Part shown: positions 13,201-62,131 of the stretch, one piece after another | Layout: every line of letters starts with the position of its first letter | Numbering within the stretch: the first letter of the stretch is position 1 | DNA from: Tubiluchus corallicola | Lineage: Eukaryota > Animalia > Priapulida | Assembly (NCBI GenBank): GCA_030141605.1 | Contig: JAQGDQ010000001.1 | Span: 806,001 to 870,000 of the forward strand | Direction: 5' to 3' | Length of the DNA stretch: 64,000 nucleotides | The notes under the pieces: generated by a model | What the model saw: only the letters and a program-made list of their open reading frames with translations | What the model was told of the DNA's origin: nothing | Database searches by the model: none | Translations under genes and position numbers: made by a program

Positions 13201-14333
13201 TGCCAGCTGCAACAGGGTCAATAACTTGAAGAACAGAACTTGTATTGACTTGCTTAGAAAACACATGGACTTTATCACCTGTGGTATAACAAAGCAACAA
13301 TGCAGCACCAAAGTTAAAACTAAAACTGAACTATGACATTTTATCAAGTTTTTATTCCTGGCCTACTATCAACTTTGCATGGTCACGTGAATACCAGCAA
13401 TACAGCGTAATTACACACCTTCTCATTGTACTTTTGGTTGTTACGTCATATTGTCTACATCATATATTGCTTACTTAGCTGCATTGTTATATCAAAACAG
13501 TACTGAAAGTATTTTTAATGTTAAACTCAAATCACAGTTTTGTCCAGGACCACTTCAATCCACTAGGCGATATACAAAAAATTTTAGTACTAACGTACAG
13601 CATGCTAAAGTTTAAGCACAACATCACTGGCATTTCGTGGCATGCTGGTTTGTTATTGCAGCATGGTCAAATTTACTCTTTTCTGATTTATCCTGCTTTT
13701 TAAATATTGGCTGTCAGGTTGCCCAGCTTTCCTAGTGTTACTCAAACTTTCACAACCAAAAATCAATGAAATGTAGTTATAAGGCTGTGTAATTGTAGCT
13801 TTGTAGAGCACCTGCTTCTAAAGTTATTGTAGTCTAAACTTCGACACAATTTTTCTGTGTCCCTGCGATGTACATACATATGTCGGAGCAAAGGTTAAGC
13901 AGCAAAACAGCAAAATATTTTAAACCTTCAAACAGTGTAAAATAGATTGCTGAAGTTTTGTTGGTAGATTATTATTTTTGATCTACATTGCTCAAAATGA
14001 ATACATTCTGGGGGGGGGGGATCAGTTAGTATAGAAATGACTCAATTAGAGCTAATTTAGAGGTTAAAAGCACTTGGAAAAATATTATAAATTTTCACAT
14101 TTAAAACAGTGTAGAATGATAGTAGATTAAATAAATGGTTTGTTTTTAATGTACCATGAATCAAATAAAAACGATCAGTGTTTATAGTGTTAGAGTTTTG
14201 AGCATGTTATAATCAAATGGTTGCTGTAAGATGCAACGAAAGTTAATGACGTACCTATTACTTTAGATTCACATGTGTATACTGCACACAACAAGAGCAA
14301 AGTTGTTAAGCAAAACAATAGTAAACTCTTCAT
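1286..14333 (-). CDS. TMCO3: Transmembrane and coiled-coil domain protein 3 (CPA2/KefC-like K+/H+ antiporter); 15 coding exons, 3' end outside the window
   Basis: Phase-consistent exons (minus): 14333-14255 (signal peptide [21 protein letters not shown]), 13278-13088, 12258-12139 (ALQGDYKD), 11935-11831, 10201-10070, 9730-9557, 8482-8354 ([14 protein letters not shown]), 7234-7142 ([22 protein letters not shown]), 6369-6186 ([13 protein letters not shown]), 6001-5969, 5453-5280 (LLGILIMQD), 3454-3318, 2548-2398 ([10 protein letters not shown]...PVRDFF), 1938-1859 ([13 protein letters not shown]), 1435-1286 ([16 protein letters not shown]). Total 1932 nt = 644 codons, open. Motifs match vertebrate TMCO3 from memory. 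The final TM exon was not found in 1-1285. Confidence 0.93.
7456..8225 (-). mobile_element. Internally deleted Tc1/mariner element in a TMCO3 intron
   Basis: Imperfect TIRs (aaaaatgtgccgaag / ctttggcacatttt). Minus-strand remnants include LNPLD...KEK.Y and C-terminal [12 protein letters not shown]. It is colinear with 48955-49702. Confidence 0.7.
10591..11595. mobile_element. hAT (Charlie-like) non-autonomous element
   Basis: TIR CAGGGGTGTGCAAA ... TTTGCACACCCCTG, with 8-bp flanks gcttaaaa / gcttaaag (7/8 match) and subterminal GGCCCGC-like motifs. Confidence 0.8.
13500..13872 (-). mobile_element. Partial third copy of the Tc1/mariner family
   Basis: gcacctgcttcta..ttattg.agtctaaacttcg.caca.ttttt at ~13808-13860 matches the right end of 49647-49700. 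Confidence 0.5.
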
Positions 14334-14559
14334 GTCGTCCTGTAAGTAAATAATTGTCATTACCTATATTCAGAAATAAAGCGTTTAATTACTGCTAGCT
14401 AAACATGGATTCTAGTATCACCAAAGAAACCCAGAGAATTTATAGAATGGTTTCACATTAAAGCTTAATAGTTTGCTTTGTACTCATATCAAAATCATCA
14501 CAAGTGTGCTCAGCTGTCCAAAAACCTTTAGCTAATCTGCATTCTCCAAGATGAATTTA

Positions 14560-15230
14560 GAATTGGAATTATTCTTTCAGAATTAGTGAGGTGTTCCATT
14601 GAAATCCATCAATGTGAGTAACCTGCCTCCTTGATATATTTGACTGCTGAATTGATTCATTAAAGTTTTAATATGTAAATTATTTTCTGGTAATCTTAAA
14701 TCATGTTCCGCATAGTTAAGTCTTCTACATTTAACCTTTTTGTCCATTTTCTTGCTTGACTTTGTCATAAGTCTTCATGGCTTATAACTTTTGGTTACTT
14801 TATCTCTAATAATGATCTGTAGGCTATAAACGTCTTTCAAAACCACCAATCTCTAATTGATTGCTTCTTATGTTCATAGTTCACGATTCTAAACTGTACA
14901 GAAAGATAGAATCCTGCTACAAAAGTTTTGAAAATCAGGAATTCATAGTATAGCCTAATGCTCTTGTTCCTGAAGACATTTCTACTTAAGCCTTGAGAAC
15001 GTTGTTAGAGCCAACATTTGATATCATCTTCAGTACCTAGGCAAATAAGCTTAAAAAATTAGCTAGATATTTATTGCATGGGAGTGGGCACTTTCTTTTA
15101 ATAACTTCGATATCTTCTTTTGTTCTTGCCAAAAAGAAAATATCGTTTGCATATTGCATATCAAATATAGCAAAAGGTTCCACTTCGCATAGTAACTGAA
15201 TTATGCTGAGCACTTTTAGGCAAAAACAGC
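14560..15230 (-). mobile_element. Degenerate reverse-transcriptase fragment
   Basis: The minus strand near 15165-15110 reads MQYANDIFFLARTKEDIE, a decayed YADD motif. Surrounding frames are broken. Confidence 0.5.
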
Positions 15231-15699
15231 AAATGCAGTTAGAAAAACGATGTAAAAGGTGCTGTTATCTATTGGATGAAAGAAGAGGCGCAAAACCTAT
15301 AGCTAGAGCTATGTCAGTTTTGTTTACATTAACGTGAATACAAAGAAAGAAGCTATGTATGGGAGCTACTCACTAAATGAGAAGAATATCTAAATACAAA
15401 TTCTATAACACACAACATTATAGCCATTTAATGGCAAATGGGCAAGCCTGCTAGCAAAACTGTGCCATAGACATTGGAAAAGAAATCTAAATTGTGGCTA
15501 TTTGAGGCACTAAGGAAAAACATTATTTCAAATCAATTTTACTTGAAAATCAGGATGCACATTGCTGAGCAAATTCATTTTTCAATTAGAAAAATCAGTA
15601 TAACAAGAGAAAAACTGTAGAATTAGGAAAAAGGGAAAAGATCACAGAAAAGATTCAAGAATTTTAATATAGTATTCAAATTGCAGAGGATTACATAAT

Positions 15700-18480
15700 A
15701 AATTAGAATATCAGCACAGAGTTATTAATGAAAAAACCTAGCAATACAGTTATTGTCAAAACCATTTTAGGAGAAGAAGCAATAAGTATTGAGGAGTATA
15801 AAGAGTCTCAAGTATATAAGAAATAAACATGAAGGAGGTTTATTATAAGCAATTAGTAATAAATCATAAAATGTAATAATAAAGGTACACCAATACAATG
15901 ATGTTAGTGAGCAATTATCAGTAGTAATGGACAATTCAAAAATAAAAATGGGAATAGGGTCATTATATTCAGGAAAGCGGAACTGATAGAGAATAAATGA
16001 AAATGATGTATGAAAGGTACGAAAACAAATACAAAAAAACAAAAGGCGGAAATGAAAGGTGTATGATAATGGGGGAATTTAATGCAAAAGTGGGAAATGT
16101 GATTAAAGCTAATAATGATGAAGTGACCTTGGCACTAAAATGTTACTGAATATGGTAGAAAAGGAAAAATGAGTTATATTAAATACAACCCAAGAGTGTC
16201 AAGGTCGATAGACAAGAGACAAAGCAGGGAAAAATCAATCTTTGATTATATTATAACAACTGCAAATGATATTAGTGCTCGTAAGTCCACAACTGTCGAG
16301 GAACAAAAACTGTATGTATTGTACAGTATAATAGGGAGAGATGTTAGAGAAACTATCTATACAAATCATAACACAATATTGTGTATTCTTGACTGGGTAG
16401 AAATCAGTATAATGAAAACTAGAAGTAAAGACTATAAAGAATTAGTAATAATAAATAAATACAGACTGGAAAAACAAGAAAAAGAAACAGATGATGATAG
16501 ATTTAAGGAAATTTGGAACACTAACAAATCAATACCAAAGAGATATGATGTATGTATTGAACAGGCTTCAGCAATAAGTAATAGGCTACTAACTAATAAA
16601 GACAAAAGGAAGCAGAAACATTGGAGCAAACGGTTGAAAATTTTAGCTAAGGAGATGTGCAGACTAAAACAAGATGACTGAAAAAATCTCTAAAAGAAAA
16701 AGAATTGAGAAAGTAGAATTAAAGAATTAAGAATTAAATCGAGGTAGTTGAAAAGATGACGAGGAAAGAGCAAAGAAAGCAACAAGCTAACACAATAGGC
16801 CTAAATTAAACTGGCCTAAATTAAACTATCAAGGAATTCACAATAGCTAGAAAACTTACCCAACAGATGTTCTGGGAATTTAGAAAACGTATGAATAAGC
16901 CAAAAATAGACGTTCTAAGCAATTGTCATAAAAGCTAGAGTAGGTTAATTCAGGAAGATCATGAAAACATGAAGATAATATTTCAGCAGTATCCAGAACT
17001 GTTAATGCCAGCTGCGCCAAAGGATGAGCAGAATCGAGAAACAGAATTAAGGATTGAAAGCATCTTTAAGCAGGAAGAAAAATGGCATACGATGAAGAAA
17101 TAAATGAAATAACTAATGATGATGTGATGGAAGCAATTAAACCATTAAAAATAAAAAATCACCAGATGTGCAAGATTGGAAAAATGAGATGATTAAAGAA
17201 ATTCGGAAAGAATTTACTGAGCAGTAACGTTAAATAAAATAATAGAGCCAAAAGAAAATACTAAGCAATGGACCCAAATGGAAATCAAATCAATCTATAA
17301 AGTAAAAGAAGATAAGAAAGAAATGAAATATAGACAAGGTCTATTTATAACACAACATACATATACTGAAATAATGGAAAAAGTGGTGAAAAGCAGGATA
17401 GCTAAATTTAAAGCAAACATAGGACTGTGCCAATATGGTGGAAGAAAAAATAGAAGGGTTTATGATCATTTACACACATTAGAATCAAACAGATTTACAA
17501 AAAATGAAGTTTGTGTAGTACAGCTGAATCCCGGTAATATGATTCGGCTTATAACGAAACTCTCATTAGTACAACAATTTTATTACTTCCCTGCCATAAT
17601 AGAACCAATGTAATCACCTATTGTTAATACAAAACTCGTCATTACTAAAACCCATTTATGCGATGTTTTCCCAAAGTCCCACCAATATAATTTTAATACA
17701 AATAAACACTTTCAAAACGATTTCTGCTATAGCCCGCCTTGCCTAGACACTCATCATCTGGTGCCATGGAAAATGTTGCCAACCCACTTTCCTATTCTAT
17801 ATGCAACTCTATTTATTTTTTACATTTATCAAAACATAATTTTTTATTTGCCTAGTGATCATTGACTAGATTCAGGTTATATACAGCAGCATCTGTCACA
17901 AAACAAAATGAACAGTGGTCACCAATGCAAACTTGTAACTTCATACCCTAGTACTAATAGTACTGATCATAATCAGGTACCTGAATATATTTGACAGCGC
18001 TATATTGCCTGCTCATAATGCAATAATGTGGTATTGATTGTTCATGAAAAAGTTGTATGAGAAATTTCATAGAAAAATGCAAAATGAAATTAAGGTTCTT
18101 AAAAAACAGGGTGGAACCAACAAAACTACATAGACACATGCAAACTATAAAAAGTAAAAGATATACTGAAATTAAAGTTAAATGTGATAATGATTAAAGG
18201 GAATGACAAGAACAAATTCAAGGGCTAGTTAATGTGCCCAATATGGTTGAAATAACTGATGTGCTTTGAATATGGAGAGTAGAAAAAATTGATAAACTCA
18301 GAGGTATTACTAATTGGGAAAAAGGAAGCATTAATGGCAGTCACTACACTAGCGAATGAATGTATGGAATATAGGAGCAAGATGAACAAACACATCAAAA
18401 ATGGGAAAGGACAACTGAAAGATCTGCATTTAAAAGGAGACTTTGCACCTTAACACTATTATTACTTGTTTCCCACCTAA
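15700..18480 (+). mobile_element. Degenerate LINE (APE endonuclease, RT start, C-terminal part), same family as the 19340-20210 copy
   Basis: Broken frames with MGEFNAKVG (~16070), EKSIFDYII, TNHNTI and YRQGLFIT...QYGGRK. Segment ~18040-18450 parallels the 19541-20209 ORF (NYIDTCK..KDILKI, NECMEYR). Many stops and frameshifts. Confidence 0.75.
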
Positions 18481-19175
18481 ATGATACCCACATTCATATC
18501 CAATGTTTAAGGCTAGAGGTAGTCCAGGGATCACCTCTAATGACTGTTCTCTACTGGCATTTAGTGTGTATATGGTATGTAGAAAATTTTGTGATTCCAC
18601 TCATGTTGCAAAATTTCTTTTGAATTTATTTATTGACTTAGATGTTACAGTTCTGCTATGGAATCGGGTTTGTAGAATTTACAAGGATGACTGCTAGTAG
18701 TTGCTACATTCCTTAAGATGGACAACTCATCAAAAACATAAATTTTATTGATAATTCGAAAAACCTGGAACATGCCACTTCGTTGGCACCTATATCGCTT
18801 TTCAGGGTAGAGAGTCGAGAATCGCAAAAATGGAATTGTTCTCTTCAGATTCTGTTAGAATATGATTTAAATTACCCTACATAAAAAGTCGGCCAAATTC
18901 GATTGCAATTTGTTCTAGGTACGTACCCCCCTAACTAAGACCTATGTCTACTCACTTAGGACAGTCATAATATACTATTATAATGTATGCCCCTTAATGT
19001 CGATTGTAGACATTGGGCAGGCAGAATTCGGCGCTATTACACTTTCGCACCGCCTAGCTTTTTATAGGTTATTACTCGTTTTTAGGCTCGTAAGTCATCA
19101 TTCTATTATTCTTACGTCATCAGTGAATGTTTCCGCTAATCTAATTGTAATTTAATCTTATTTAGGCATAATTAC

Positions 19176-20348
19176 CAATAATTACGCTGTATTCACAGTT
19201 CGACACAGTATGGCCATCTTGTTTGTGTGTGGTCACGTGACGAATTTCGTACTAGTTTATGCATTATCAGGGCCTAGCTTAAAAGGCACGTGACACACTT
19301 TCATCTTCACCGCATTTACGAAATAAAGAAAAAACCTTTACTTTTTTTTATAATCTAATAGTAATAATATTACAGTAATAAATAAAATCAATGATAAATA
19401 ACTGTTCCGTTCCAGGCCCACCCGCGATACGATACAAACTCCTGTATTGCGATTGCGATTGCGATACTCGACTCTCTCCACCTATCCGAGGCGGGCACCT
19501 TTATAGGGTGCAAAGTCTCTTCTTCTTTAACGCTGATCTTTTATTTGTCTTTTCCAAGTTCAATGTCTTTATTTGTCTTTATCCTGTATTCCATACATTC
19601 GTTCACTAGATTTCTAATTTCTGGCAATCCTTCCTTTTCACTGTTCATTAATACTTCCGAGTTCAAAATTTTTTTCCATTCTCCATATCTGTAACATCTA
19701 AGCATATGTTCAGTAGTGTCATCATCTTCCTCACACACTGGGCATAATAACTGATCCTTAAACTCATTCTTGTAGTTCCCCTTAACTTTAATCATATTCA
19801 GTCTTATTTTCAATATATCTTTAATCTCTTCTGGCTTGCATGTGTCTATATAATTTTGTCGTTTCCACTCGGTATGCCTTAAAAATCTTAATTTAGTGCT
19901 GCTCCTGCATTTTTCTGCACATTCGCTCTTTATACAACGTTCAATCTTATTCTTTATTTCTTTCTTCCATTCAGACTTTTTCATGACCTTCACCCTTTCT
20001 TTATTAGCATCTATGGTATATATTTTTGCAGTCTCAAATACTTCATTATACCATGACCTTTTGTGTACACTGTTTATTTGCATTTCTAGTATCTCTGATG
20101 CTAATCTCTTTGGTTTACTAATCAATAAATTCCGATAGAACATCAATCTCCTATAGTTTACTTTATGTTTTAGAGGCCATATGCCTATTTCAGTTACTAG
20201 TTGCTGCAACCCTAATAATCATAAATTATGTGAAGAAACTAAAAATACAGGTTAAGGGCCACATACGTCACTGCGCGAGAGCGATTGCGCATCAGTGATG
20301 TAAACACGGTTATTCACGTGCAGCTTTTAATGGCGGCTGTAGGTAAGT
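19176..20348. promoter_or_regulatory. Candidate bidirectional promoter and first exons for TMCO3 (-) and RNF168 (+)
   Basis: Minus side: YY1-type AAGATGGC (19220-19213) followed by gtaatt donors (GT at 19185-84 or 19175-74), GTCACGTGAC at 19232-19241 and CACGTG at 19287-19292. Plus side: CACGTG ~20315-20320, YY1-type AATGGCGG 20329-20336 and consensus donor AG|GTAAGT at 20342/20343. The region is locally CpG-rich and lies between two head-to-head genes whose ATG exons both start with splice acceptors. Confidence 0.55.
19340..20210 (-). mobile_element. 5'-truncated non-LTR retrotransposon (LINE) 3' end nested inside the TIR element
   Basis: Open 222-aa ORF 20209-19541 with the C-terminal RT-associated zinc knuckle CPVC...DTTEHMLRC. 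It is followed by a GC-richer 3' UTR and an A-rich tail near 19340-19350. Confidence 0.8.
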
Positions 20349-20639
20349 AATGCATGATTTTAATCTGATTTTAATCTGGACTTATAAAGCGTACGCAGCA
20401 ATAATATTATGGGAATATGGTGTATATTACGCCTGTTGGTCTGCTTTCTGGCCTGCAGGCGTGAAAACAACCAATAGGCCAGGAAAAGCTAGGCGGTGCG
20501 AAAGTGTAATAGCGCCCAGAATTCTAAACTAAAAGAAATCTGGCCTATAAACAAAAAGTAACTTAGACTAGGAGGTACGAAAGTAAAATATCGCCAAAAT
20601 CTGCCTCAAGACAGGTAAGCAAAAATTTAAACAACTCAA

Positions 20640-21614
20640 TGCCAATTGTTGGGCGCCGAGTAACCCACTAGCCAAAGTAGGGCAATTTTTGGCGTACATC
20701 GGCTAGCCAAGTAGGACGCGTCGTACATGGGCTAGCCCAAGTATGACCCGTCGTATATGGCTGCCCAAGGCGGACACTAGAGACAGGTCGCCAATTGAGT
20801 CGTTAAGCGTCTGGCACTGTCCGCTGTCCTTGTTTATGAAATAATAATAATTATACACGTTGAATAATTTATACATCTAATAAAATAAACGAATTTTATT
20901 CTGAGTTAGTATAATTTTTACTAATTACAGTACTAATCTTTTTTTGAAGTGAAATAAGCGCACTTTTTAGGCGCTTCCAACATTGCTTAAGGCATATCAC
21001 TTTTTACTTTGCCTTGCTTAATAGACAGGTGATCTTTTTCACTCCCTCTGGGACAAATAATTGTTTTCTACTAAGTAAACGGGTTAGCGAGTTATGTGCC
21101 CTATGTAGTTTCTCTCTTTAAAGTATTAGATACTTAGTTTAATGTTATGGTGATAATTATTAATGGAGCTAATAATGATGATACTGTTGTAAAAAGTAAA
21201 TTGTCAAGGACTATCCATCATTATTATAAAGTTACTTTTTTCTAAAACAAGTTTAGTTTTATGTTTTATTATGTCATAGATCTCGATTCTTGACAGAAAT
21301 CGCTAGTGCCCTACTTGGACTGCCCGTGTACTGTTTTTCCGCAAATTTAGCACATGCATTTTACCGGACGTGCCCTTCTTCGGTCAGGGGATTACTCGAC
21401 GCTCTACACCAATAGCTTGCCTGCACCTAATTTAATTATAGTCACAATAACGGTGTTGGGAGTGGAGTAGGACATTAACCGAAGTAGGACAATTGGCGTA
21501 CACGGGCTAGCCCAAATAAAACGCTTCGAATATGGGCTGCCCAAGCAGGACACCAGAGACAGGATACGAATCGAGTCGTTAACAGTACTGGCAACGTTTA
21601 TTGCCCTTGTTTAT

Positions 21615-21646
<32 letters not shown>

Positions 21647-21889
21647 TGAAAACATCAATACGCGTTGAATAATTTATTATACATCTGATAAAATAAAAGA
21701 AACTTGATCTGAGCTGGTAGAGTGGCCAATATTAAATTTGGTTTCGATATTGATCTTTTTGAAATCAAATAAACCTGCTTTTTTTAGCAGTTCCAACATT
21801 TGCTTAAGGTGTATCATTTTTATTTGTTCGCTTCACAGACAGGTGATTCGTTTCATTACCTCTTGGACAAATAATTGTTTTCTACTCTG

Positions 21890-21890
<1 letters not shown>
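20640..21890. repeat. Two diverged ~400-bp direct copies of a MITE-like unit with ggctagcccaagtagga subrepeats
   Basis: ~20690-21075 parallels ~21495-21885 (ggcgtaca..ggctagcc; agagacagg..gagtcgttaa; ttccaacatt.gcttaagg; ggacaaataattgttttcta). ggcgccgagtaaccc (~20652) is inverted against gggattactcgacgc (~21389). Confidence 0.65.
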
Positions 21891-21939
<49 letters not shown>

Positions 21940-21960
21940 CCCCTCTGTCTCTTTCTCTCT
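21889..21960. repeat. (CT)n microsatellite
   Basis: Direct reading. Confidence 0.95.
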
Positions 21961-22919
21961 AAGAGGGAGAGAAAGAAAAATCAATAAAGGCATTCCTTTT
22001 TTACATAGTATTCAGCCCATCATGCAGTCAGCTAGGCTCTTTCCTCAGGAAGAACAATAAAATTTTATTTACAAGACAACTGAAGAAGTATTTGCCAGTA
22101 CGTAATACAAGCTTATTGCTACAACTGTTTTTTGTTTTCATGATTTATTATCAAAGAATCCTTTGGAGAAATTTCTTCCGATAGACGATATGTTATTCAG
22201 GCATTTTAGATTTATAATACAGCACAAGTACACGTGGCAGCCAACATAATTATAGTAGAGGAGGACATCCTGAAAGTTATCAGTCTAGGTGAAACTACCC
22301 TAACAGATATAGCATTCGTCCACCTTGCACTGAGAACACTGAAAACTAACAGACAAGGAAGGACATCATTTCAAATAAAGCCTAAGCAAAGCAACCTAAC
22401 CTAAGAAAAGCACAAAGCATCAAATATATTCATCTCAGAGAACCTATAAAAGTTCAATAGAGAAATGAGAACAAAGCTCCGTGTCAAGAAGTGAAAGAAG
22501 AAACGTAATAATCAGAAAAAGCAATGTTGTCAAAAGAGCACACACTTCAACCCATTTAGTTATGACACCCAACACCCAACTGCTGAAAAACATCTCACCA
22601 GTAAACACTTTCTATCATAGAACTCTGAAAGGGAGATCACTGTTTAGATTTCTATTTTCAAATGCTGATAGAGTTATTTAGGAATAAAGTTTAAATAGTC
22701 ACATACAGCTTGCAAAAAGTGAACCTACTAATAATTCTATTAACTGTGGCTAATTTCAAACGTCAACGTAACACTCTCAGCTTAGACTGGCTATTTTTCG
22801 TGTAAATGTAAATTAATGCATGACTGCATAGTGCAGAGCCCTTATAGTGACGTGTAAAATATGTGCTTGTTCTAAGTGGTGTGCTGCTCAGATGACTATG
22901 TTGGATTAATTCTCTAATC

Positions 22920-24612
22920 TAAAGACAGTAGGGTAACAGTATCATTACCTTATCAACTTAAAAAATCAGTAATTATTCCTGTGTTTAAGGCTAAAGACTC
23001 CTTAGATATTAATAACTATAGACCTATATCATTATTACCTTTTTTCTCTAAAATATTAGAAAAAATAGTCCATAAAAGGTTATTAGACTACTTGACTATA
23101 CACAATGTCCTTTATAATCATCATTATGGCTTCCCTACACAGTTCTACACAGCTAGCCCTAATAAATATAATAAACAACGTAATTAATTCATTAGAACAA
23201 AACACTGTTGTCATTGGCATTTTTGCGATCTCTCTAAGGCCTTTGATACATTTAATCGTGCTATTCTGTTAGATAAGTTATTCCATTATGGCATTAGAGG
23301 GGTCGCATACTCATGGTTTGCTAATTACCTCAAGGACCGAACTCAAGCAGTTAAATGTAACAATGTTTTTTCCAACGAAGCAATAGTCACACACGGAGTA
23401 CCTCAGGGATTTATTTTGGGACCTCTGTTGTTTCTAATATACATTAATGACTTACGAAACTGTATTACTGACAATGGAAAGGTCTTCCAATTTGCTGATG
23501 ACACAAGTATTTTTTTCAAGATCAACAGCAAGTTGCTTAACACTACTATTATTAATAGTGAACTCAGTAAAATTACAGCCTGGTTTAAAATCAATAAATT
23601 AGCACTAAACTCAACTAAAACTAAATACATTTTATTCAGAGCTCGTAACAAACCCATAAATACGAACAGTGTTATAAAAATTGATGGTAATGCTGTAGAA
23701 CAAGTAAGCGAAATGAAGTTCCTAGGGGTTATGTTAAATGAATACTTAGATTGGAAACCACACTTAAACATGATTCATTCTAAAGTTGCTAAAAACATCG
23801 GGTTAATCAGTCGAGTTAAACATTGTTTTACAAAAGAACAGCTAATGACTCTTTATAATTGTCTAGTACTGCCATGCTTAACCTACTGTAATATACTTTG
23901 GGTGCACACCTACCCTTCAACTCTAGTTAAACTAAACTCTCTACAACATAAATTTATAAGATTGATAGGTAATTTGAACAAGCGTGAACATGTAGGTCTT
24001 AATCTTTTTAAGAATTATTCTATTCTAGTGCTAAATGATCTAATAAACCTTAATGCCGCTGTGTACATCTGCAAAACCAAACATAAACTTCACCCCGCTT
24101 TCTTTTTAAACCCATTATCTATTAACGTAAGACATTAAGTATTGCAGGACTGACGCGGCAAGGCACTTCATCACTAACACTGGCCCTAGACTTTGGAATA
24201 AAATAAACGAATACATAAAAAATTCTTTATCTATAAATAACTTCAAAAGAAATTTTAAAAATGAAATGTTTTCTAATTATACAGAATAAATCAATTTGAT
24301 TAATTACACTGCCGTCCCTGTCAGAACCCTATGTCAATTTTTACATTTCTGTAGTTCATGTTACTTCATACAGATACCATCTTTCTTCTTCTTTCTATTC
24401 TCTATTAACCTTTCTTCTACTCCTATAGTGCTCTTTTCTATTACACTCTGTCCACATTCATTTGGGGTACTTCTTGAGTACCCCACGGGTCATTTGCGGC
24501 TTGGCACCTTGTACACATAATAATAAATATATTATTAAATACTTTTATGTACAATGCTGTAATGATCATTGTGGATATATTTAATAAATAAATAAATAAA
24601 TAAATAAATAAA
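22920..24612 (+). mobile_element. 5'-truncated CR1/L2-group LINE with frameshifted RT and (TAAA)n tail
   Basis: YRPISLLPFFSKILEKIV, DLSKAFD, GVPQG.ILGPLLFLIYINDL, FADD and KFLGV motifs lie across shifted frames. (AAAT)n tail at ~24583-24612. Confidence 0.9.
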
Positions 24613-25121
24613 ATGTTGCACAATGGATATTTTTACAGCTATAGGAGTCCCATTTCCTGCACTTAAATAGGCGTCACCTATATTATAGGAATGAGTCTAT
24701 GGAGTAGATCTCAGGATCAGACTTAAAACCTTGGAAGTTGAAGATGTTGGGGCTATTAATCTGGTCTTGCCCTGGATGCCTAAAGCTCTGTTAATTAATA
24801 TGCTCCATAACATGTTAGTGCATGCAGTGGAGCAAGAAAGTTGAAAAGCTATATTGAAGGTCTCGCTTTCTTAGGCAAACAGTAAAGCAGTACCGAAAAT
24901 TAATAATGACAATTTTTCTAGGTTATGAACAAAATGCTTATGATTGCTACTCACCCACTAAATGAGATAATGGACAAAAAGCTCATGACATGATTCATTA
25001 ACATTTATAAGCCAGATGATCTTAATGACTTCCACAATAAATTGCATGGGCCGGATATTCATCTATAAAAAAATTATCATATTACTATGAAAAAATACAT
25101 CAAAGTTTATTGCCCTCCATG

Positions 25122-25576
25122 TAGGGGGTGAGCATTCCCTACCAGAAAGCGAATTTGAATCAAACCAAATTTGTGACTTTCGAATTCGAATTGAATCGAA
25201 TTGTGACTTTCGAACTGGAATCGAACCGAACTTCAGTATTTCAATTTCGAATCGAATTCGAATTGAGACTGAAAGATTTTTGAACAAGTTTTTGAACCAC
25301 CAGTAAAAATTAGTCTTACAAAGATAATGTATATTACTCGATTTTGTTCAGCAGCAAAACTGCTAATAATTTGCTTAAAATTGTACACAAAAATTGTACC
25401 ACTAAATTATGCTCCTTGCATGATGTTTCCAACATTTTAATGATAAAGTACGTATGTTCTTGAAGTGCTGAATTATTCAAATCTATAGTTTTCGGTTCGA
25501 ATCGAATTCGAGCTAAAAAAAACTCATTCGAATCGAATTCGATCGTTCAAACTCGAACATTCGATGCTCACCCCTA
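25122..25576. mobile_element. hAT-like MITE with GAATCGAATTC subterminal repeats
   Basis: TIR TAGGGG(G)TGAGCAT ... ATGCTCACCCCTA, with arrays of cgaatcgaattcgaa near both ends. The TSD is not clean. Confidence 0.7.
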
Positions 25577-27821
25577 CTTCGACGCATTTGATATTACCAT
25601 AATTATGCCAGAGTGGAATATCCTCATTGCTCCAAGTCAACAGATCAATATAAGAAAAAATTAGGCACGCACTGGGAAGACCACCCAATGATGGAAGTTC
25701 CATGATGTGTTTGACCCTCAATAGTCTCTTAAAAAATAAAAATCCCCAACCCTTCTACAACTGCCACTCCAAACTTTTAACAAAAGGACATAACTGACAT
25801 TTCTTCCTCACTATACCTTAACAATTTCCTCTAAGTGTAACAATTCCACTTACAAGACAGAGAACTTTTGCGAGAAAACGAAAATGTAAAACGCATGTGA
25901 GATAAAACGATTAACGGAGGCATAATGAGTGAGAAAACTATGGACAAAAAGCCCTAATTGTGTTGGTTTTCGCCCTATCGATCAACGGCAATCTGCGGTA
26001 ATTTTAAATTTTTTTTCGTTGTAATCTGAACTTAGCAAAAAAGTGAGAGTGTTATTTGCTGATATAATGATAAGATAGTTGCTTTAAAATTGCGTTGTGT
26101 AAGTCGCGCTGCTTGCCGCGATATGACCCTTAGAATAGCTCAAAATTTCGCTTAGGAAAAAAAGAAGCGCGAGAACGACCTGGCGTTTCAATTGCTTATT
26201 TTGATTTTTTCTATTTTTTTGTTTATTAAGTGCTTTAGTCAGAGCTTTTGTGTATTTTTAATAATTTGTTAGAGTAATCACATTTTGGAAGTTTTTCATA
26301 ATTCGTATATGAAATTTATTCTCATACACGTCATTCCCAAGTCACAAGATTTTATCGTAAGCAGCACGTAAAAAGCACAAATTTAAATTTAAATGCATCT
26401 GCGTGATAGGCAAGCCTATTTACCAGCGCTGTAGTTCGGAATCGACTCGGGCCTGAATTATATAAAAGTGCTCCGTATGCCACGGAGCAGCTCTACGCAG
26501 TTCTAATATGTGGTCTATATAATGAGCATTTTGCATTCTTGGCAAAAACGTATCACAAAAAGTCAGTGCCCTAGTAAAATTTTTTCATTGGCATGAAATT
26601 CTGAATACTTCAAATTATACAGTAAAAGAATAACAATGAGCGAATTTGTATAGTGCATCCATCAAAAAATTAACAAATCGGAAAAAATTCAGTGCATCCC
26701 TATGTGTGTCACACACATTTTTAGTCGTTCAGCGGCATGCTTGTCAGGATTCAGTTCTCACGCATTCTGCAACTTCACACGAAACTTTGCAAAATCATCT
26801 GGCTTGCTTTGCCTGTCAGTTACAAAAACAACGTACAGTAGCATTTATGAGTTTTATGAAAACTGAGACTAAAAACTGCCTTTTTACATCATTTTCCCAA
26901 TGCTGAAGTAATTGCCACTTGCCTATATTAAGTTTCATTAAAAAAACTCAAGTTTTCATTTTCCTGTACTAAATTTTTTTTACTTTTTCTGTTCGAGATT
27001 ATGCAATATAAATTCAGCTAAATTAATTCTCGTTTTGGGCACTCACTTGTAATCACATGTCTTGCCATTTAAGCATTTGCACATTTTATCCTTCTTAAAG
27101 CATTTTTTAATTTTTTTTGCACACCTAAATCATTTTTTAAAATATTCTTCTACTCCTTAGCACGTAATGGTGGCATAAATGGATCAGCAAAAATATGTTG
27201 ACCAATATAAACTGTAATTAACCAATATGTTTCAATTAATACATCTAGGCCTATAAGCGTGCTTTGTTGCTGAAACAAATTAGTTCTGCCAGACAAGCGC
27301 AATTGTTTGTGATCTATCTCTCATCATAACGTAAGATATGGTAACGTAGGTTAATAATTTATAAAAAACAAAACTTAATACAGTCTAAACCCGAACTTTT
27401 TATTCATACAAATTCAGAAACATCAAAATTAAAGGAACTTTTATTGGCTATTTTTCATCTTTTCAAAAGCAATTTTAGGTGCGATTAATTCGGCAAACCG
27501 AACTCTTCTACTACTCTGCAATACTACTGCCATTTTTAGCAATCATGCCATCCACAATCGTACCCTAAATATCAGAAATATTATTTAAAATGTCATCTCT
27601 TCTTAGAGCTTTTTATACCTTTTGGAATTATCACTAAGTTTTCATTTAACATCTACATAGCTATCTTATTTCTTTTTTGTAATTATAAATATGCCTGGTA
27701 CCAGTTGTCAAAGTAATGATTAGTGATTAGTTAATAGTCATGGCCTGAGTTAATAGCTCTTCCGTTGACTGTTTTGTCACTGTCGTAACAGTCGATACCT
27801 GTGCCATTAAGAAATTTTTTC

Positions 27822-28182
27822 ACACACTCATATCTCAGTTTGCCGGACTCGCGATATCGGAAAAATTGAACAAAATCTCCACTGTTAAAAGTCCCGCATA
27901 CTACGGACACAGTCTGTTGTTTCACGAGCTGACTGCTAGTTGGCGGGCCGTCACTTTGTCTGCATCCTTACATCAGTGCAACCAAGCGGCTTGTAACAAC
28001 ATGTGTGTAGCTTGTATGTCAGGAGCGGCCCGTACTAGATGTTTTTGAGATGACTGGGCGATTGATTCTATATTACCGTGAGTCTTATACACGGGACCTA
28101 CTGTATTAACTTAGTATCGGCAATCAGCAAATTCGGACCGACGTCTCACCACTTTTGTCTGGCAAACCGAGATATGAATGTA
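27822..28182. mobile_element. ~360-bp MITE
   Basis: Inverted ends acacactcatatctcagtttgcc / ggcaaaccgagatatgaatgtat; CpG-rich interior. Confidence 0.6.
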
Positions 28183-29051
28183 TTTAACCTGTTTTAAATT
28201 TAATCATATTTAATACTATTGATCCATGTAATGCCAACTTATTCATGCCAGAATATTAAGTCAACGACCTAGACAAATCTTTACAACAATTTGTGTCCAA
28301 AGAGGCTTTGAAAATACTAAAACTGTAAAGTGTTGAGTGACCAAATCTGAATACTTTTTAATGCCTAGTGGAGGACAAGGTTTACTAGTAATCAGTGACT
28401 TTGAATGGATCAACTTAATCATACATGTTTGAAAGAGGTTCATTTGCACACAATAAAAGCTTGATGCATAATTTTGGCTTGCGGAAGATGTTAGTGTCTT
28501 TTGCATATTTTTGTAAATCTCCTGCTTGCACCTGTAACTTGGGATCGTATACCATCTCACTGTACGTCACCAGTTGCATGACACTTGCATACTGCCCCTT
28601 ACAACTTGTGAAGCTGTGGGCCTACATCTCTACAACTCGCATTCCATTACTGGCTGTTACACTCTTAATTAAGCTCCTATCCCACCTCTGCTAGAAGTAT
28701 CTGCTTTGTCCATTTAATCATCTCAAAATCCACTACATTTTCTCCGCACCTAATACAAGATTTAATATTTACTAACTTCTAACAAACATAATTGATGTCA
28801 AAATCTATGATGAACCTATTTGCAGACAGAAAGTTAACTTTTCAGTTCGAAGTAATAGCAGTGAACCTAAATGTTATCTCAATGGAAAAGCACTCATGGC
28901 TTGAGTTCGAATTTAATTTGGTTTAGTTAGGAGGTTACAGTATCCTTTGCGAGGCATCTTAGCGCTTTTTGCTAAGATGTCTCGTAAACAATGTGCTAAC
29001 ATGAGCATTAAAAATTAAGCTGTGTGTTTTATTTTCAGCTACTTATTCGTG

Positions 29052-32000
29052 ATGCAGCTTCAAGAATGCATGTGTGCCATTTGCATGGACATCCTTATAG
29101 AACCTGTTATTTTGCCTTGTAGTCATGAACTATGTAAGCTGTGCTTCCATGCGAATGTTCACGAGACAAGCCTGCAGTGTCCTTTTTGTAGAAAATGGAT
29201 CAGTTCTTGGGCGAGGAAGGCTACCAGGGAAAATAAGCTGGTTAATCAGCAAAGATGGAGAGCTATTAGAGAAGCTTTTCCAGACATGATTAAGAAAAGA
29301 CTGACAGGAGAAGGAGATGCTGGCTGCTTGGGTTAGTCTAACGAAATTTATGGTTTTCTCACTTTTATCACTTTTATAATATATTATTATATTAATAATC
29401 ACTTTCTTATTAAGTTTTCCTATCTAGAATTAAATCAAAGTAATTTTTTATTTTGTGCTTAATGAGAGAGTTTAAGCTTTACACTAGGTTTGTAGTTTCC
29501 CCCAAGTTTTCTGTTTTGAAATGATGTAGAATGTTGTAGATTATATCATCTGCCTATGCAGTCAACCGCAGTTATCGAGTAGCACTGCCTTTTAATAAGC
29601 TGCAGAATGTGCTTGAGGCCAGCCACAAAAAAATTGTTTCTGCCTTATCTCATGAGCTCAAAAGATATCAGTAGGGAAGGAGGGAAAACTTTTTTCAAAA
29701 ATTTTTTTTAAACTTTGTGGATGTTTAAAGCTGAATCGTGGAATATTTAACATCAGTTGAAATCGAAGTTTGTTTATTTCTCACTGGTTAGCAGTAATGT
29801 TTTAATTTTTTCAATGCACTTTTTTCACGCTTTGTTTTTTAGTTTTCCTTTACTAAATTATGGTATAATTATCGATTATTGCATATCTTTTTTGTATGTT
29901 AAACGTACGCATATTCTGATAATTATGGTATAAGCGGCAACAGTACTCGGCCGCTAATGCACCGATTTGGTGGAAAATTCGATGCAAAATGGCAACCCTG
30001 GCCAAGAGTTAGCCGTGGAAAAATATGACCGCATCCTGGGTTCCCGGAAAGAACGATATTATAATAATTATTGCGTTTTAAATGAAAAAAATATGCTTTT
30101 ATACGACTGCGTCAAGCAAATATATGAACGTACAAAAAAAAACTAAAACTGTCCAGGCGGGTGTGCAATAAAAATATTAGCTGGGCAATTGACGGAAACA
30201 AAAGCATTTTTATTGTCGGCCTCAACTACAAGGGATGAGAATTGCCTCGATAGATTTTGGTAGAACTTTCCATAATGTGGAAATAGTGTTTGTTTAATAT
30301 GAGTTACAGTGTGTGTTAGTTAAATTAAATATTTGCTGTGCATAATTAATGATTACATGCTTTAATATTTTCACTCTTCTAATTAGGTATGCAGTTTTAG
30401 CTTTTGTGTTGTACAAATTGTCTCGATTGTTGTTAGAGTTCTAATTCATTACAGTAGTGTTAAATGTGATGTGCATATTCCAAATCTTTTACGTCATCTA
30501 ATTTACAGTTGGTTGTGTGTATAGGCTGATGTGGGGGAAAATGGGCCGCCACTGAGGGAAAGCGAACCAGAAGTGGGGGAAATGGGCTCCTATGGCAAAT
30601 AATATCTGCTGTGTTGTAAAAATATACATAAAAAGATTAAGATTAAGGTTATGATCTTTTATTAGGATCCTTAGCCTCATAAAAGTTGCATGCAATCCAT
30701 CTGTACTTTAAAAAAATACTAAAGATTTTGTATTAAGCTGCTATGACCATAGATGAGTCCAGGTGAGGTACTGGTGTCAAACGAGGCTTTGGGACGATTT
30801 CAGTCTGAGAACGAAAAAAGGCAGAGCACTCCTATTAATGTTTCTATTTCTGAAAAGCCAAACAACTAAAAAAAATTACACTTGTGCCCCAGTATATTCT
30901 GATAGTGAGGAAAGTGCCACTATCAGCAAGAAAAAGCATAGAAAAGTATAATATAGAAAGCAACTGAGTAAATTTTGGCAATTTTTTGATTGTTGGTTAC
31001 TATAATATTCAGATCGCCTGTCAGCAAGAATAGCAAAACAGAGTAAAAAATTATGCAGTGTTATTAGGAAATTACGGGAATTGAACACCAATGTTACAGC
31101 TTGTCGTGTTGAAAAGATGCTGCCATCTGATATTATTTAAAGGGTTGAAGAACCAGTCATATGAAGCTGTGGCATTCAATTTAAAGAAATTTAAATTCCA
31201 CAACTCGAGAGCTTAATAGCAATAGCAATTACAAACAGTTGTGAGTTAAGATATCTGGCTATATAAATGTTACAAAATAATCCACGAGTTTTTAAGCTTG
31301 GTAAACACCAAGTAAGTACTACTAAAATTAGTGGTTTCTAACTTTCTCTTTTTAAAATTTTCTTTTGATGTCAATTTTACTGTAGAACAAAATAATGGTG
31401 AGGTAATGATGGGCCCATTTTAGCCTGAAAGCTGGAGTTAAGAGGACTACATGAATGCCAAAAAAAACTTAAGTTACCATAAAAAATTGTTGATGCAGAA
31501 ACAAAATATTGTTGTAATCTAATAGAGCAGACCTCAAATGTATAGATGGAAAGTTCATCTGCAAAAAGTTTCACTTTTCTGTGAGGCGGGCCTTGGAATT
31601 CTTTGAAAAAACCTGCCCATTTTCCCTGTTTTACTTCATCATTTTAAATAGCATTTAAAACTGTAGTACTTTTGTAATGGTATTTAATATTTAACTATTA
31701 TTAAACAGGCGAATTGTTGCTTATCAACCTCGACCAGAGCTTATAAACAGTTTCCGAATTTCTGGTTTTCATTACTGTTTGACTGTATTTTGTTAAGTAA
31801 CTTGTATTTTAAGATATCCAAACAATGGCTGGTATTTTCTGAATTCGATCTGTGTTTGTACATATATTATTTTTGCAGTCTTGTTTTGCCACAAAATCTA
31901 ATATAATGTAGTATATTTTATCCAGCTAAGCGCAGTTTCATACTTGCACCTGATCATCTAAGCCTTTCTTTGTAATGAAGTCAGCTCAAAAAATTCATTA

Positions 32001-35000: not shown

Positions 35001-38000
35001 ATTTGTGCTATTTTTACCTGCTTTCCATTTTTGCCATTTTTTTCTGTGCCATTTTTATCGTGCCATTTTTTTCCTGTGCCATTTTACCTGTATCATTTTT
35101 ATCTATATTCATTGTAGGCATTTATTGGCTTTGTAATTAACTCATTCATGCTTTGTCTTAAATTTGTAGTTTTTTAATGGAATTTGCAGTTTTTCAAATT
35201 GTTCTTTCATGGGTAATTTTCTTTTCAGTCAGCATAGGGAAACCAAATTTGTCACAACCTGGTGAAATCAGAAAAGAATACATGGAGCAGCTGAAAAAAG
35301 TAAGGTCATCATCATTAAAATTTAACTGTGGGATTTCTGTAAAATTTATTAGTCAAACGTAGTGAAATAGCCTATATGATGTTAATCGAAGATAAACTGT
35401 TTTTGGAGAATTTTGTATGCCAGTGGTGTGGTGTAAGATGTTGACTACAATTGTAATAGGGTTTAATTTCGTTTTGCTTGTAATTGACAATGCAACATAT
35501 ATAAAATTAAATCCTGTTTAAAACTTTGAAGACTGAGTATGCTCATTTTGTGTAATATAAATGTTTAGCCATTTACAGAACAGTTTTATATTCCAGGCTT
35601 GGGTGAATTGAGTAGAAATGTTTCTTGAGTTACCCATTGAAAGTTTCACAATTAGTTTTAATCACTTAATTTATCCTAAGAAATTTAGGAAATGACACAG
35701 CATCCAAGTGTTGTTGCGCTTGCTTGACCAAAGGCTGAACTATAACTCTACATGTACCAATTTGTTATCCAGCTAGCATACTGTAAATTTGAATTATCAC
35801 TGATGATTAAATTTTATTGAAATTAATGTATATTTTCAGCTGAATAAAAAGTCATAGCTATTAATAAAAAACTTTTATATAGCTTTAGTAGAAAACTAAA
35901 GTTAAGGCCATAACTATAAATATGTTTCTACGTAACAGTGTTATGTCAAAATGTGTTATAAATTTTGTAGTTGGGAGATAGGCTGTAGTTGTTTGTTTTT
36001 AGTGTTGGTCACTTGAATATATTAGTACATGTATACTCCACATCTCACTTACCAGTATTTCACCATTATATTTCATAGCTGCACGAAGAGCTACAAAAGG
36101 AAAGGGAAGAAGAGGAAAGAGCTAGTGCCTTGCTAATTTGTAAGTTGCAAGAAGAAGAGTTACGGGAAAGACAGAGCTACAATGTAATGGTCGAGGTAAA
36201 GTTATGAAATTTCCTAAGTACTTTTATGCACGTCAAAAGTTTCTTCAGTGTGCTTAATTTTAAATTTATAAATCCTGCTTAAGATATATATCTCTGGGTC
36301 TATAGCTAAATATGTCTCACATGATTCATGACTTAACGTCTTTTTAAAGAAGCTTGTGCTCTCCTATGACTTTATAGGAAATTATAATTAATTTGATAAA
36401 AGTTGGGCAGATTCATTTTACTACTTGCTAGGGTTTTTACAGAAGCCACTAAGGACTTTACTTTTTCATTTTTTTAACAAACAAGGTAAAATGTCTTAGG
36501 ACCCTGTATTTGAAAAAGCTTGTGGATGCATTTTAAGCTCAAATAAATAAACCAAAGCTTTCAGCTTTCACGTTTGACTCGCCCGTCAACAGGGGAAGAG
36601 CTTTATTCATTTTGAGGTTCCAGTGTCAAAAGTCAGAGTCACAGACCTGATATTTGAAAACTTATGAATCCATTTCGCATGTAGGTCACCCATAAACAGC
36701 AGAAGAACCCTGTCAATTTTGGGTACCAGTATCAATGGTTAAGGTCACAAGACTAGATATTTGAAAAATCTTGCAGACGCATTTTAAGCCAAAATAATTG
36801 ACTTTAAGCTTTCATATTTCATGTATACGCCACCAGAGATTTTTGTATTCGCTCTAACGTTTAAACAAAGTCGAATATTAAGTGCAAAAGACACAGGTGG
36901 CACTGCTTAGCGGCCAAGGGTGTAGCAAGGTGTATGCACGCATGACGTAACATTAAAAAACGGCACTTTTAGCCGTTTAATGTACAGTAAAAATTATCAC
37001 AAATATTTTTCCAGTATGTATGTGAAAGAAAAAATTATTGCTGACTCAAGTAAATGTTGATGTGTATGGTAATTATAAGGGAAAAGTCATCAAGTGATTT
37101 GTCAACATTTGCATCTTATAGTATTGTTTTTTAGGACTTTGGTAGGCCAGTTACACCTACATTTTAAAAGCACGTTAGGCCGAAACGTAAATTGCATTAA
37201 GATACAACTAACATTTTTTTCCTAAAAACACATGACAAATTTGAATTTAATGACTAATCAATACATGCAATAATAATTGTATAATAACAGTTATAATAAA
37301 AACATCTGTAGTATCAGCTGTATCTGTAATTACTTGGTAATTCACATGTGACAGCGAGGCCTACACGAAGGTATAATGAAAATGTAGCTTTACCCTTTAG
37401 AAAGACTACCATTAAAGTATGTTATGTTTTGTTCATTTAAATTTGTATTGTCAATTGTATATGATACAGTAGTTTTGGCCAATGTGTCTAATATTAAGAT
37501 TTTAGGCTCATAAACCATAGGCCTATTAATAGCAGTTTTGTTTACAGGTACATATATTTACAAAAATAAAAAAGTGTAAATATTAGCAACAGGTGATAAG
37601 AAGCTCATTAAAAGCAAAGGCCACCTAACTCGCATAAACACTACTTACACTTAATGTAAATAAAATGGTTTACTTGTATTTAAGCCAGAATGGGGTGCCT
37701 GGCATAGATCTAAAATTTTTAGTATCACTCATCCCTCAAAAACATTCTTTGATAAAAAATGATATTGTAAATAGAATGAAGAAGTATCTATTCTATTATA
37801 TTAATATTCTTGGTATCTTAATATATATATATATATATAAGATTCGAGGCTACAGCTTCGACGAGGGCACCATTTGCGGCGATTTATACATCAAACGAAA
37901 GGTCTCGATCTAGTGTCGTCTCATTGGGGGTTTATTTTTCGAACTGGGCCCACAGCGAGGAAGGGGAGGCGAAAAACCTCCAAAAATGACCATTTTTCGG

Positions 38001-46751: not shown

Positions 46752-62131
<15,380 letters not shown>

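What the first reader, a model, noticed from the sequence alone, without database searches (positions are those of the whole stretch)
19022..20524. TIR transposon with perfect ends appears to contain the bidirectional promoter and both first exons of the TMCO3/RNF168 head-to-head pair
Seen: exact 33-bp inverted repeats (19030-19062 / 20484-20516) bracketed by a direct 8-bp duplication CAGAATTC. Inside are two outward-pointing YY1-type motifs, each ~190 bp from an end, each preceded by a CACGTG E-box and followed by a splice donor (AG|GTAAGT at 20342; gtaatt at 19185 or 19175 on minus). The ATG-bearing exons of both neighbouring genes begin with a splice acceptor only 6 nt (TMCO3) and 13 nt (RNF168) before the ATG, so both need an upstream first exon, and I saw no better candidate in the 15-kb gap. 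Known: GG termini with an 8-bp TSD typify Merlin/IS1016 elements, and YY1 motifs just downstream of the TSS typify housekeeping bidirectional promoters. Inference: either a mobile 'promoter cassette' has been adopted by two housekeeping genes at once, or the element captured a promoter elsewhere (Pack-type) and offers alternative first exons. The perfect TIR/TSD implies a young insertion or constraint.
Basis: partly seen in the sequence, partly recalled or inferred. Interest (0 to 1): 0.85.

Follow-up and report, generated by a model that had tools for sequence, protein, structure and literature searches.

The report
Jumping DNA carrying two-way promoter look-alike
A small cut-and-paste transposon sits between two head-to-head housekeeping genes of an animal (likely a priapulid worm) and carries outward-facing promoter-like motifs at both ends, but the same motifs occur in many other copies of the element, so it is likely a mobile family spreading a captured promoter rather than the genes' own promoter.

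Summary
Observation confirmed: 33/33 inverted ends, exact 8-bp duplication, two outward E-box/YY1-type/donor modules, acceptors 6 and 13 nt before both ATGs. The composite module occurs twice in 64 kb, both here (0 in 300 simulations; pattern chosen after the fact). In one public contig set of the same species the arms are multi-copy. One contig over the left YY1 motif and E-boxes has depth 296, against 9-35 for single-copy pieces. Four joints skip the LINE-like insert, and a variant at depth 300 lacks the right module. Both motif ATGs are out of frame with, or stopped before, the neighbouring genes. A CpG-rich, low-depth stretch at 25940-26520 is an alternative promoter candidate. No transcript data could be tested. 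Best reading (0.5): a Pack-type transposon family with a captured bidirectional promoter, here a passenger. Adoption by the genes: about 0.17. The scan noted a similar case in sharks, on other DNA (e1-9525696, unchecked).

The parts
19022..19029 (+). left copy of the 8-bp target-site duplication
19030..19062 (+). left TIR, 33 bp, starts GG
19030..19441 (.). left arm of the family; CpG o/e 1.53; multi-copy in run X1
19115..19185 (-). candidate splice donors of the left module (19185, 19175, 19115; 1.8, 4.5, 5.9 bits), weak to moderate
19213..19220 (-). AAGATGGC, the YY1/TISU core; ATG at 19217, not in frame with TMCO3 or stopped within the exon
   Evidence: motif per PMC2518114
19234..19292 (.). 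two CACGTG E-boxes (19234, 19287), inside a contig of depth 296
19446..20199 (-). 5'-truncated LINE-like insert (225-aa open frame 19541-20218, short tandem tail); skipped by four family contigs; belongs to a separately repeated family
   Evidence: LINE label is an inference
20315..20348 (+). right module: E-box 20315, AATGGCG 20329, donor AG|GTAAGT at 20342 (10.7 bits); ATG out of frame with the RING gene; deleted in a variant of depth 300
20484..20516 (-). right TIR, 33 bp
20517..20524 (+). right copy of the target-site duplication
20543..20606 (-). older inverted copy of the left junction (19019-19087), 50 of 64 aligned bases alike, including 9 of 11 flank bases
14333..14341 (-). TMCO3 splice acceptor and ATG (signal-peptide-like start)
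29037..29054 (+).
25940..26520 (.). alternative promoter candidate outside the element: CpG o/e 1.46 (27 CpG), low depth in X1 (3-7), TATA-like box at 26459; untested

Best explanation
This is one copy of a repeated, non-autonomous cut-and-paste transposon family whose interior is likely a bidirectional housekeeping promoter with two first exons captured from another gene pair, and this copy is likely a passenger in the TMCO3/RING-gene gap that would supply at most minor alternative first exons. Shown: ends, duplication, motifs, high depth over the arms, insert-free and right-module-free variants. Inferred: an ancestor copied about 0.4 kb of host promoter between its ends (Pack-TIR type); a transposase encoded elsewhere then spread it to tens of sites, each with its own 8-bp duplication; this copy later took in a LINE-like 3' fragment between the two modules; the two genes keep an older promoter elsewhere in the 14.7-kb gap, for which 25940-26520 is my best candidate.
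For: Run X1 holds the same species: the 8 long pieces listed match at about 99% with depth 9.1-34.5, median 16.3. At 95% likeness, 266 records lie on 18860-20660; single contigs have depth 296 (19208-19324, left YY1 and both left E-boxes), 358 (19295-19375) and 301, that is about 9-22 times single-copy depth; the bins over the right E-box and the YY1/donor have summed depth 1287 and 460. Four joints skip the insert (summed depth 728, about 21-45 times). One joint (20223 to 20414, depth 301) removes the whole right module, so the family moves without it. 41 of 266 records fit both ends and 41 lie only partly on the stretch, as junction contigs of other sites would (not listed, so flanks unseen). 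At 85% likeness, family contigs differ from this copy by several indels inside the proposed left exon. Both motif ATGs give short upstream frames, not N-terminal extensions, whereas in human genes this motif's ATG is the true start in 64% (PMC2518114); both RING homologs found have 11 or more residues before the matching position, which would need a phase-2 exon, and the strong right donor gives phase 1. Promoter-carrying multi-copy elements are known (HelibatN3, PMC4224331), and multicopy Pack-TIRs lay far from their source in PMC8277862.
Against: The element holds the only two sites of the gap that combine a YY1-like ATG, an upstream E-box, CpGs and a usable donor (2 of 11 relaxed YY1-like sites), and the right donor is the second strongest of the 10 plus-strand donors above 7.5 bits. 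The arms are as CpG-rich as my alternative candidate (1.53 and 1.07 against 1.46). No parental single-copy promoter was found, because only 64 kb could be searched, so capture is inferred from the layout alone. Depth of contigs is not a copy count, and rests on one run. Out-of-frame on both sides would happen 4 times in 9 by chance, and 36% of human genes with the motif start translation elsewhere. The alternative promoter is only a CpG-rich stretch with no YY1 motif.
Confidence: 0.5

Rival explanations
1. The outward modules are the element's own: built-in outward promoters with donors (or relics of a two-gene autonomous parent) that let it restart transcription of genes it lands in, as maize Mutator does. 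No host promoter was captured.
For: Maize Mu insertions gave outward transcripts in 20 of 33 alleles (bioRxiv 10.1101/2023.06.05.543741, abstract). Each module lies about 190 bp from its end. An older relative of the end lies next door, so the lineage is long-lived here.
Against: The two modules are not homologous to each other (left arm against reverse-complemented right arm scores 27; 42 of 200 shuffles reach it), unlike promoters built into long TIRs. A variant of depth 301 has lost the right module. No parent element was found (no genome).
Confidence: 0.23
2. This copy is the working promoter of one or both genes. Either it replaced the old promoter, or the native promoter was copied into a resident element by gap-filling repair (which keeps the duplication intact), the original was lost, and daughters spread from here.
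For: Position and polarity fit; both genes need an upstream exon; best motif set in the gap; 56.9% of 281 animal Pack-TIRs lie within 15 kb of their source and arise by gap filling (PMC8277862); an older end of the same lineage at 20543-20606 shows the family has been at this place before.
Against: Multi-copy interior and a module-free variant; upstream ATGs out of frame; weak left donors; a 0.75-kb LINE-like insert between the modules; no second copy or remnant of the interior in 64 kb; multicopy Pack-TIRs were always distal in PMC8277862; both long plus-strand LINE-like pieces in the gap (15.5-18.8 kb, 23.2-24.1 kb) would be antisense to their host intron only if the promoter lay right of 24.1 kb (weak; antisense bias recalled from vertebrates).
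Confidence: 0.17
3. The motifs are chance features of a young, CpG-rich MITE and have no promoter activity.
For: The pattern was chosen after the fact; CACGTG occurs at 10 places in the window and strict YY1 motifs at 6 places; left donors are weak; young repeats keep CpG.
Against: Two outward composites 352 bp apart in the insert-free form, none elsewhere in 64 kb and none in 300 simulations; left core matches AAGATGGC exactly.
Confidence: 0.1

Closest known systems
Multicopy Pack-TIRs of animals (PMC8277862; passages read)
   Same: TIR element with internal non-transposase DNA of a few hundred bases, amplified by transposition, able to form chimeric 5' UTRs with neighbours.
   Different: The parental copy is not identified here; the cargo looks like a two-way promoter with two first exons, which the passages I read do not describe.
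HelibatN3 and other promoter-carrying bat Helitrons (PMC4224331; passages read)
   Same: Mobile element that spread a promoter, 5' UTR, first exon and part of intron 1; promoter-bearing families reached the highest copy numbers; one took in a retroposed sequence later.
   Different: Rolling-circle elements without TIRs or TSD; one-way gene starts with a known source gene.
Merlin / IS1016-like superfamily (PMC8101967; passages read)
   Same: 5'-GG ends, TIR within 24-462 bp, 8-bp duplication.
   Different: No transposase seen; hAT, P, Mutator and others also make 8-bp duplications (recalled), so the superfamily is only likely.
Maize Mutator outward-reading promoter (bioRxiv 10.1101/2023.06.05.543741; abstract read)
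   Same: DNA transposon predicted to drive transcripts outward into host genes from either side.
   Different: Mu's activity is shown by RNA-seq; here there is no transcript evidence, and the modules lie inside the arms, not in the TIRs.
Shark pogo MITE with captured bidirectional promoter (scan note e1-9525696, unchecked)
   Same: Same overall anatomy as noted there: miniature TIR element, about 380 bp promoter piece with two opposed start exons, many copies.
   Different: Other animal and other superfamily; a source gene was named there, none here.

Membership tests
Non-autonomous TIR transposon (MITE-like) | Terminal inverted repeats with a flanking target-site duplication | tested here: met
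   33/33 TIR, 8/8 TSD
Non-autonomous TIR transposon (MITE-like) | No transposase coding | tested here: met
   Only frame of 100 aa or more inside is the LINE-like insert; insert-free length about 726 bp
Non-autonomous TIR transposon (MITE-like) | Many near-identical copies | tested here: met
   Single contigs of depth 296-358 over the arms against 9-35; one run, depth is a proxy
Non-autonomous TIR transposon (MITE-like) | Different TSD at each copy; empty site | tested here: inconclusive
   41 of 266 records lie only partly on the stretch but are not listed; no empty-site joint among the 6 joints
Merlin / IS1016-like | 5'-GG termini, TIR 24-462 bp, 8- or 9-bp TSD | tested here: met
   against PMC8101967; one copy only
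Merlin / IS1016-like | Partner element with a DDE_Tnp_IS1595 transposase and the same ends | not testable with these tools
   No genome held; end patterns found 0 in metagenome and prokaryote collections, which do not cover animal genomes
Pack-TIR | Internal sequence with an identifiable parental copy free of TIRs | tested here: inconclusive
   No second copy in the 64-kb window; rest of genome not available
Exapted transposon promoter | Host transcripts start in the element and splice to host exons | not testable with these tools
   No usable RNA run (see Tried and rejected)
Exapted transposon promoter | Insertion fixed in the species and motifs conserved more than the family background | tested here: inconclusive
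   Neither filled nor empty junction seen in X1; family contigs differ from this copy in the left exon
TISU/YY1 start element | AAGATGGC core just downstream of the start site, ATG usually the true start | tested here: inconclusive
   Core exact on the left, partial on the right; ATG not in frame with either gene; start sites unknown

The most novel reading that the evidence does not exclude
The shared promoter and both first exons of two housekeeping genes now live inside a mobile element: the native bidirectional promoter was copied into a resident TIR transposon, the original was lost, and the cassette went on to seed tens of promoter copies across the genome while the founder copy runs both genes.
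Probability: 0.15. Interest if true: 0.85.

Novelty: new member of a known kind. Interest (0 to 1): 0.38.

Why it matters
On the best reading, this is one more case of a DNA transposon spreading ready-made gene starts, here apparently two-way and in a little-studied phylum. Tens of recent insertions of one promoter cassette are a natural test of whether a housekeeping promoter works wherever it lands. If the copy really runs both genes, two essential-type genes would depend on a still-mobile family; my four searches aimed at such a case returned 0, 1, 2 and 0 papers, and none that I read described it. The library lacks most subscription journals, so this is not proof that it is unpublished.

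Tried and rejected
Whole genome: none held, so no direct copy count, TSD survey, transposase partner or parental promoter. RNA: no RNA holder listed; run X2 (RNA is a guess) had 16 records on 13500-30000, none on the element or either first coding exon; no evidence either way. Empty site: no joint from 19021-19029 to 20517-20525 among the 6 joints; one search showed only 15 of 84 joints. X1 has no record at 95% on either flank (18860-18981, 20568-20660), on 19165-19207, or across the insert's right junction (bin arithmetic is met exactly by two other contigs). I do not count these holes: the tool warns against it, the bin with the RING exon is also thin (7.3), and assembly clean-up can remove single-copy paths beside deep repeats (recalled). 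End-pattern scans: 0 in metagenome contigs, 0 in prokaryote genomes, 3 matches of an 18-base pattern in viral contigs with no further likeness to the arms, taken as chance. Rfam: 5 matches at E 0.59-4.3, all far below gathering score; no spliced-leader or small-RNA family. Spliced-leader trans-splicing would remove the need for first exons; one search gave 3 papers, listing only, none on priapulids; left open. Long decayed TIRs as the source of both modules: rejected. Rest of the older element in the left flank: not found. A longer TIR with a 2-base indel instead of a TSD: considered because the duplication contains a palindrome and the older copy shares flank bases; the exact 8-bp direct repeat abutting both ends is simpler, but other copies' flanks are needed. 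Pfam gave nothing significant for the insert's frame; the Atlas gave unnamed clusters at 0.97 and zf-RVT (60% of members) at 0.93, with recognition below the tool's threshold, a lead only. Scan look-ups by sequence and near place: nothing. PMC7786948 passages: no matching case. Supplements were not consulted for any paper.

Full report
Observation. The element is real. The ends at 19030-19062 and 20484-20516 are complementary at 33 of 33 bases, and CAGAATTC lies directly outside both and nowhere else in the window. A composite of E-box, ATGGC[GC] and donor occurs twice in 64 kb, both in the element and facing outward, and never in 300 simulated windows. I derived that pattern from the element, so the rarity is overstated, but chance is not the first explanation. 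Both neighbours begin their ATG exon with an acceptor. A TMCO3 exon hits named TMCO3 proteins; its best match among 97 is 75% alike and is named Priapulus caudatus, so the animal is likely a priapulid or close to one. The other gene has a RING domain; I did not confirm the name RNF168 further.

Anatomy. 19446-20199 is an insert. It is 69% alike, inverted, to the end of a decayed element at 15.5-18.8 kb, has a 225-aa frame ending in a Cys/His cluster and a short tandem tail; I call it LINE-like from those recalled features and a weak zf-RVT lead, since Pfam gave nothing. Without it the element is about 726 bp and the two motif ATGs are 352 bp apart, the scale of a bidirectional promoter. In amphioxus 25% of neighbouring genes share such promoters, mostly housekeeping, and YY1 was scored at ubiquitous promoters (PMC6292497, passages). 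The two modules are not copies of each other.

Copy number. No genome is held. One public contig set, X1, shares 0.37 of sampled words and matches single-copy stretches at about 99%, so it is the same species and probably another individual. The 8 long pieces listed have depth 9.1-34.5. Over the element the depth rises sharply and falls again at its borders. Summed depth is not a copy count, so I rely on single contigs: 296 over the left YY1 motif and both left E-boxes, 358 next to it, about 9-22 times single-copy depth. Four contigs join 19441-19446 to 20200-20205, skipping the insert, with summed depth 728 (about 21-45 times). One contig of depth 301 also skips 20224-20413, which holds the entire right module. 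A contig of depth 211 follows the insert to 20199 and then leaves the element, so the insert belongs to its own repeated family; that it is private to this copy is an inference. At 85% likeness, family contigs of depth 228-509 differ from this copy by substitutions and indels inside the proposed left exon.

Fit to the two genes. Spliced as proposed, the right ATG opens an 8-codon upstream frame whose stop overlaps the main ATG, and the left ATG is out of frame with TMCO3 or stops within its exon. In human promoters this motif lies at +5 to +30 and its ATG is the true start in 64% of genes (PMC2518114, abstract and section 5). The RING gene's frame is open back to its acceptor and both homologs found are longer at the N-terminus, which would call for a phase-2 coding exon; the strong donor gives phase 1. 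This is mild evidence that the modules came from other genes. Against my reading, they are still the best motif set in the gap: of 11 relaxed YY1-like sites only these two have an E-box, CpGs and a usable donor. The gap does hold another CpG-rich stretch, 25940-26520 (o/e 1.46, against 0.44 in the TMCO3 body), with low depth in X1 and moderate donors on both strands; it is a candidate only.

Age and coincidence. Family contigs differ from this copy by about 2-5% (3 of the 8 pieces listed lie on the arms). At 2% the ends and duplication stay perfect 19% of the time, at 5% only 1.5%, so youth suffices but is not proven. A clean duplication means nothing was deleted on insertion, so an older promoter must have been in the gap. 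Rough inference: if about 2,000 head-to-head gaps of about 10 kb cover some 6% of a 300-Mb genome, 1-3 of 20-45 random copies would land in one; those figures are assumptions, apart from the 314 Mb of contigs in X1.

Mechanism. Most likely (0.5) an ancestor captured a host bidirectional promoter and was spread by a transposase encoded elsewhere; this copy is a passenger that may give minor outward transcripts. Rivals: built-in outward promoters as in maize Mu (0.23; abstract); adoption by one or both genes (0.17), best imagined as gap-filling capture of the native promoter, which keeps the duplication and usually draws on DNA within 15 kb, although multicopy Pack-TIRs were distal in that study (PMC8277862, passages); chance motifs (0.1). 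An older inverted copy of the left junction at 20543-20606, sharing 9 of 11 flank bases, is unexplained: it may show a target preference, repeated local activity, or longer true ends.

Comparison. It works like promoter-carrying mobile elements such as HelibatN3 (PMC4224331, passages) and like Pack-TIRs. It meets the tests for a non-autonomous TIR element; Merlin's end and duplication rules are met (PMC8101967, passages) but its transposase could not be sought; Pack-TIR membership lacks the parental copy. The scan noted a similar anatomy in a shark MITE (e1-9525696; unchecked, it led me to the Helitron paper). Searches for a MITE-borne bidirectional promoter or its adoption by a gene pair gave 0, 1, 2 and 0 papers; one search gave 131, of which I saw 20 as a listing.

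Verdict. Observation confirmed; interpretation partly supported; new member of a known kind; interest 0.38, and 0.85 if transcripts show that both genes start here (probability about 0.15).

Noticed in passing
window 20543-20606: Older inverted copy of the element's left end that also shares 9 of 11 flank bases with the present insertion site; possible target preference or longer true ends. A 12.4-bit donor follows at 20614.
   Followed up: partly
window 20709-21072 and 21482-21886: Two diverged direct copies (70%) of a repeat with depth about 900 in X1, right of the element.
   Followed up: no
window 25125-25578: Another short inverted-repeat element (ends begin GGGGTGAGCAT after TAG-containing flanks) with internal TTCGAA repeats and depth above 5000 in X1.
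   Followed up: no
window 25940-26520: CpG-rich, low-depth stretch with a TATA-like box at 26459; candidate native promoter.
   Followed up: partly
window 28951-28983: Small inverted repeat (12 of 13 bases) with two outward AAGATG motifs about 60-90 bp before the RING exon's acceptor.
   Followed up: no
window 23188-24138: 316-aa reverse transcriptase frame (RVT_1, E 3.7e-21) on the plus strand inside the gap.
   Followed up: no
window 37800-38400: The most CpG- and GC-rich stretch of the window, just before the 458-aa exon at 38818.
   Followed up: no
window 53160-53522 and 60592-60954: Minus-strand exons that look like a receptor guanylyl cyclase (recalled motifs, not searched).
   Followed up: no
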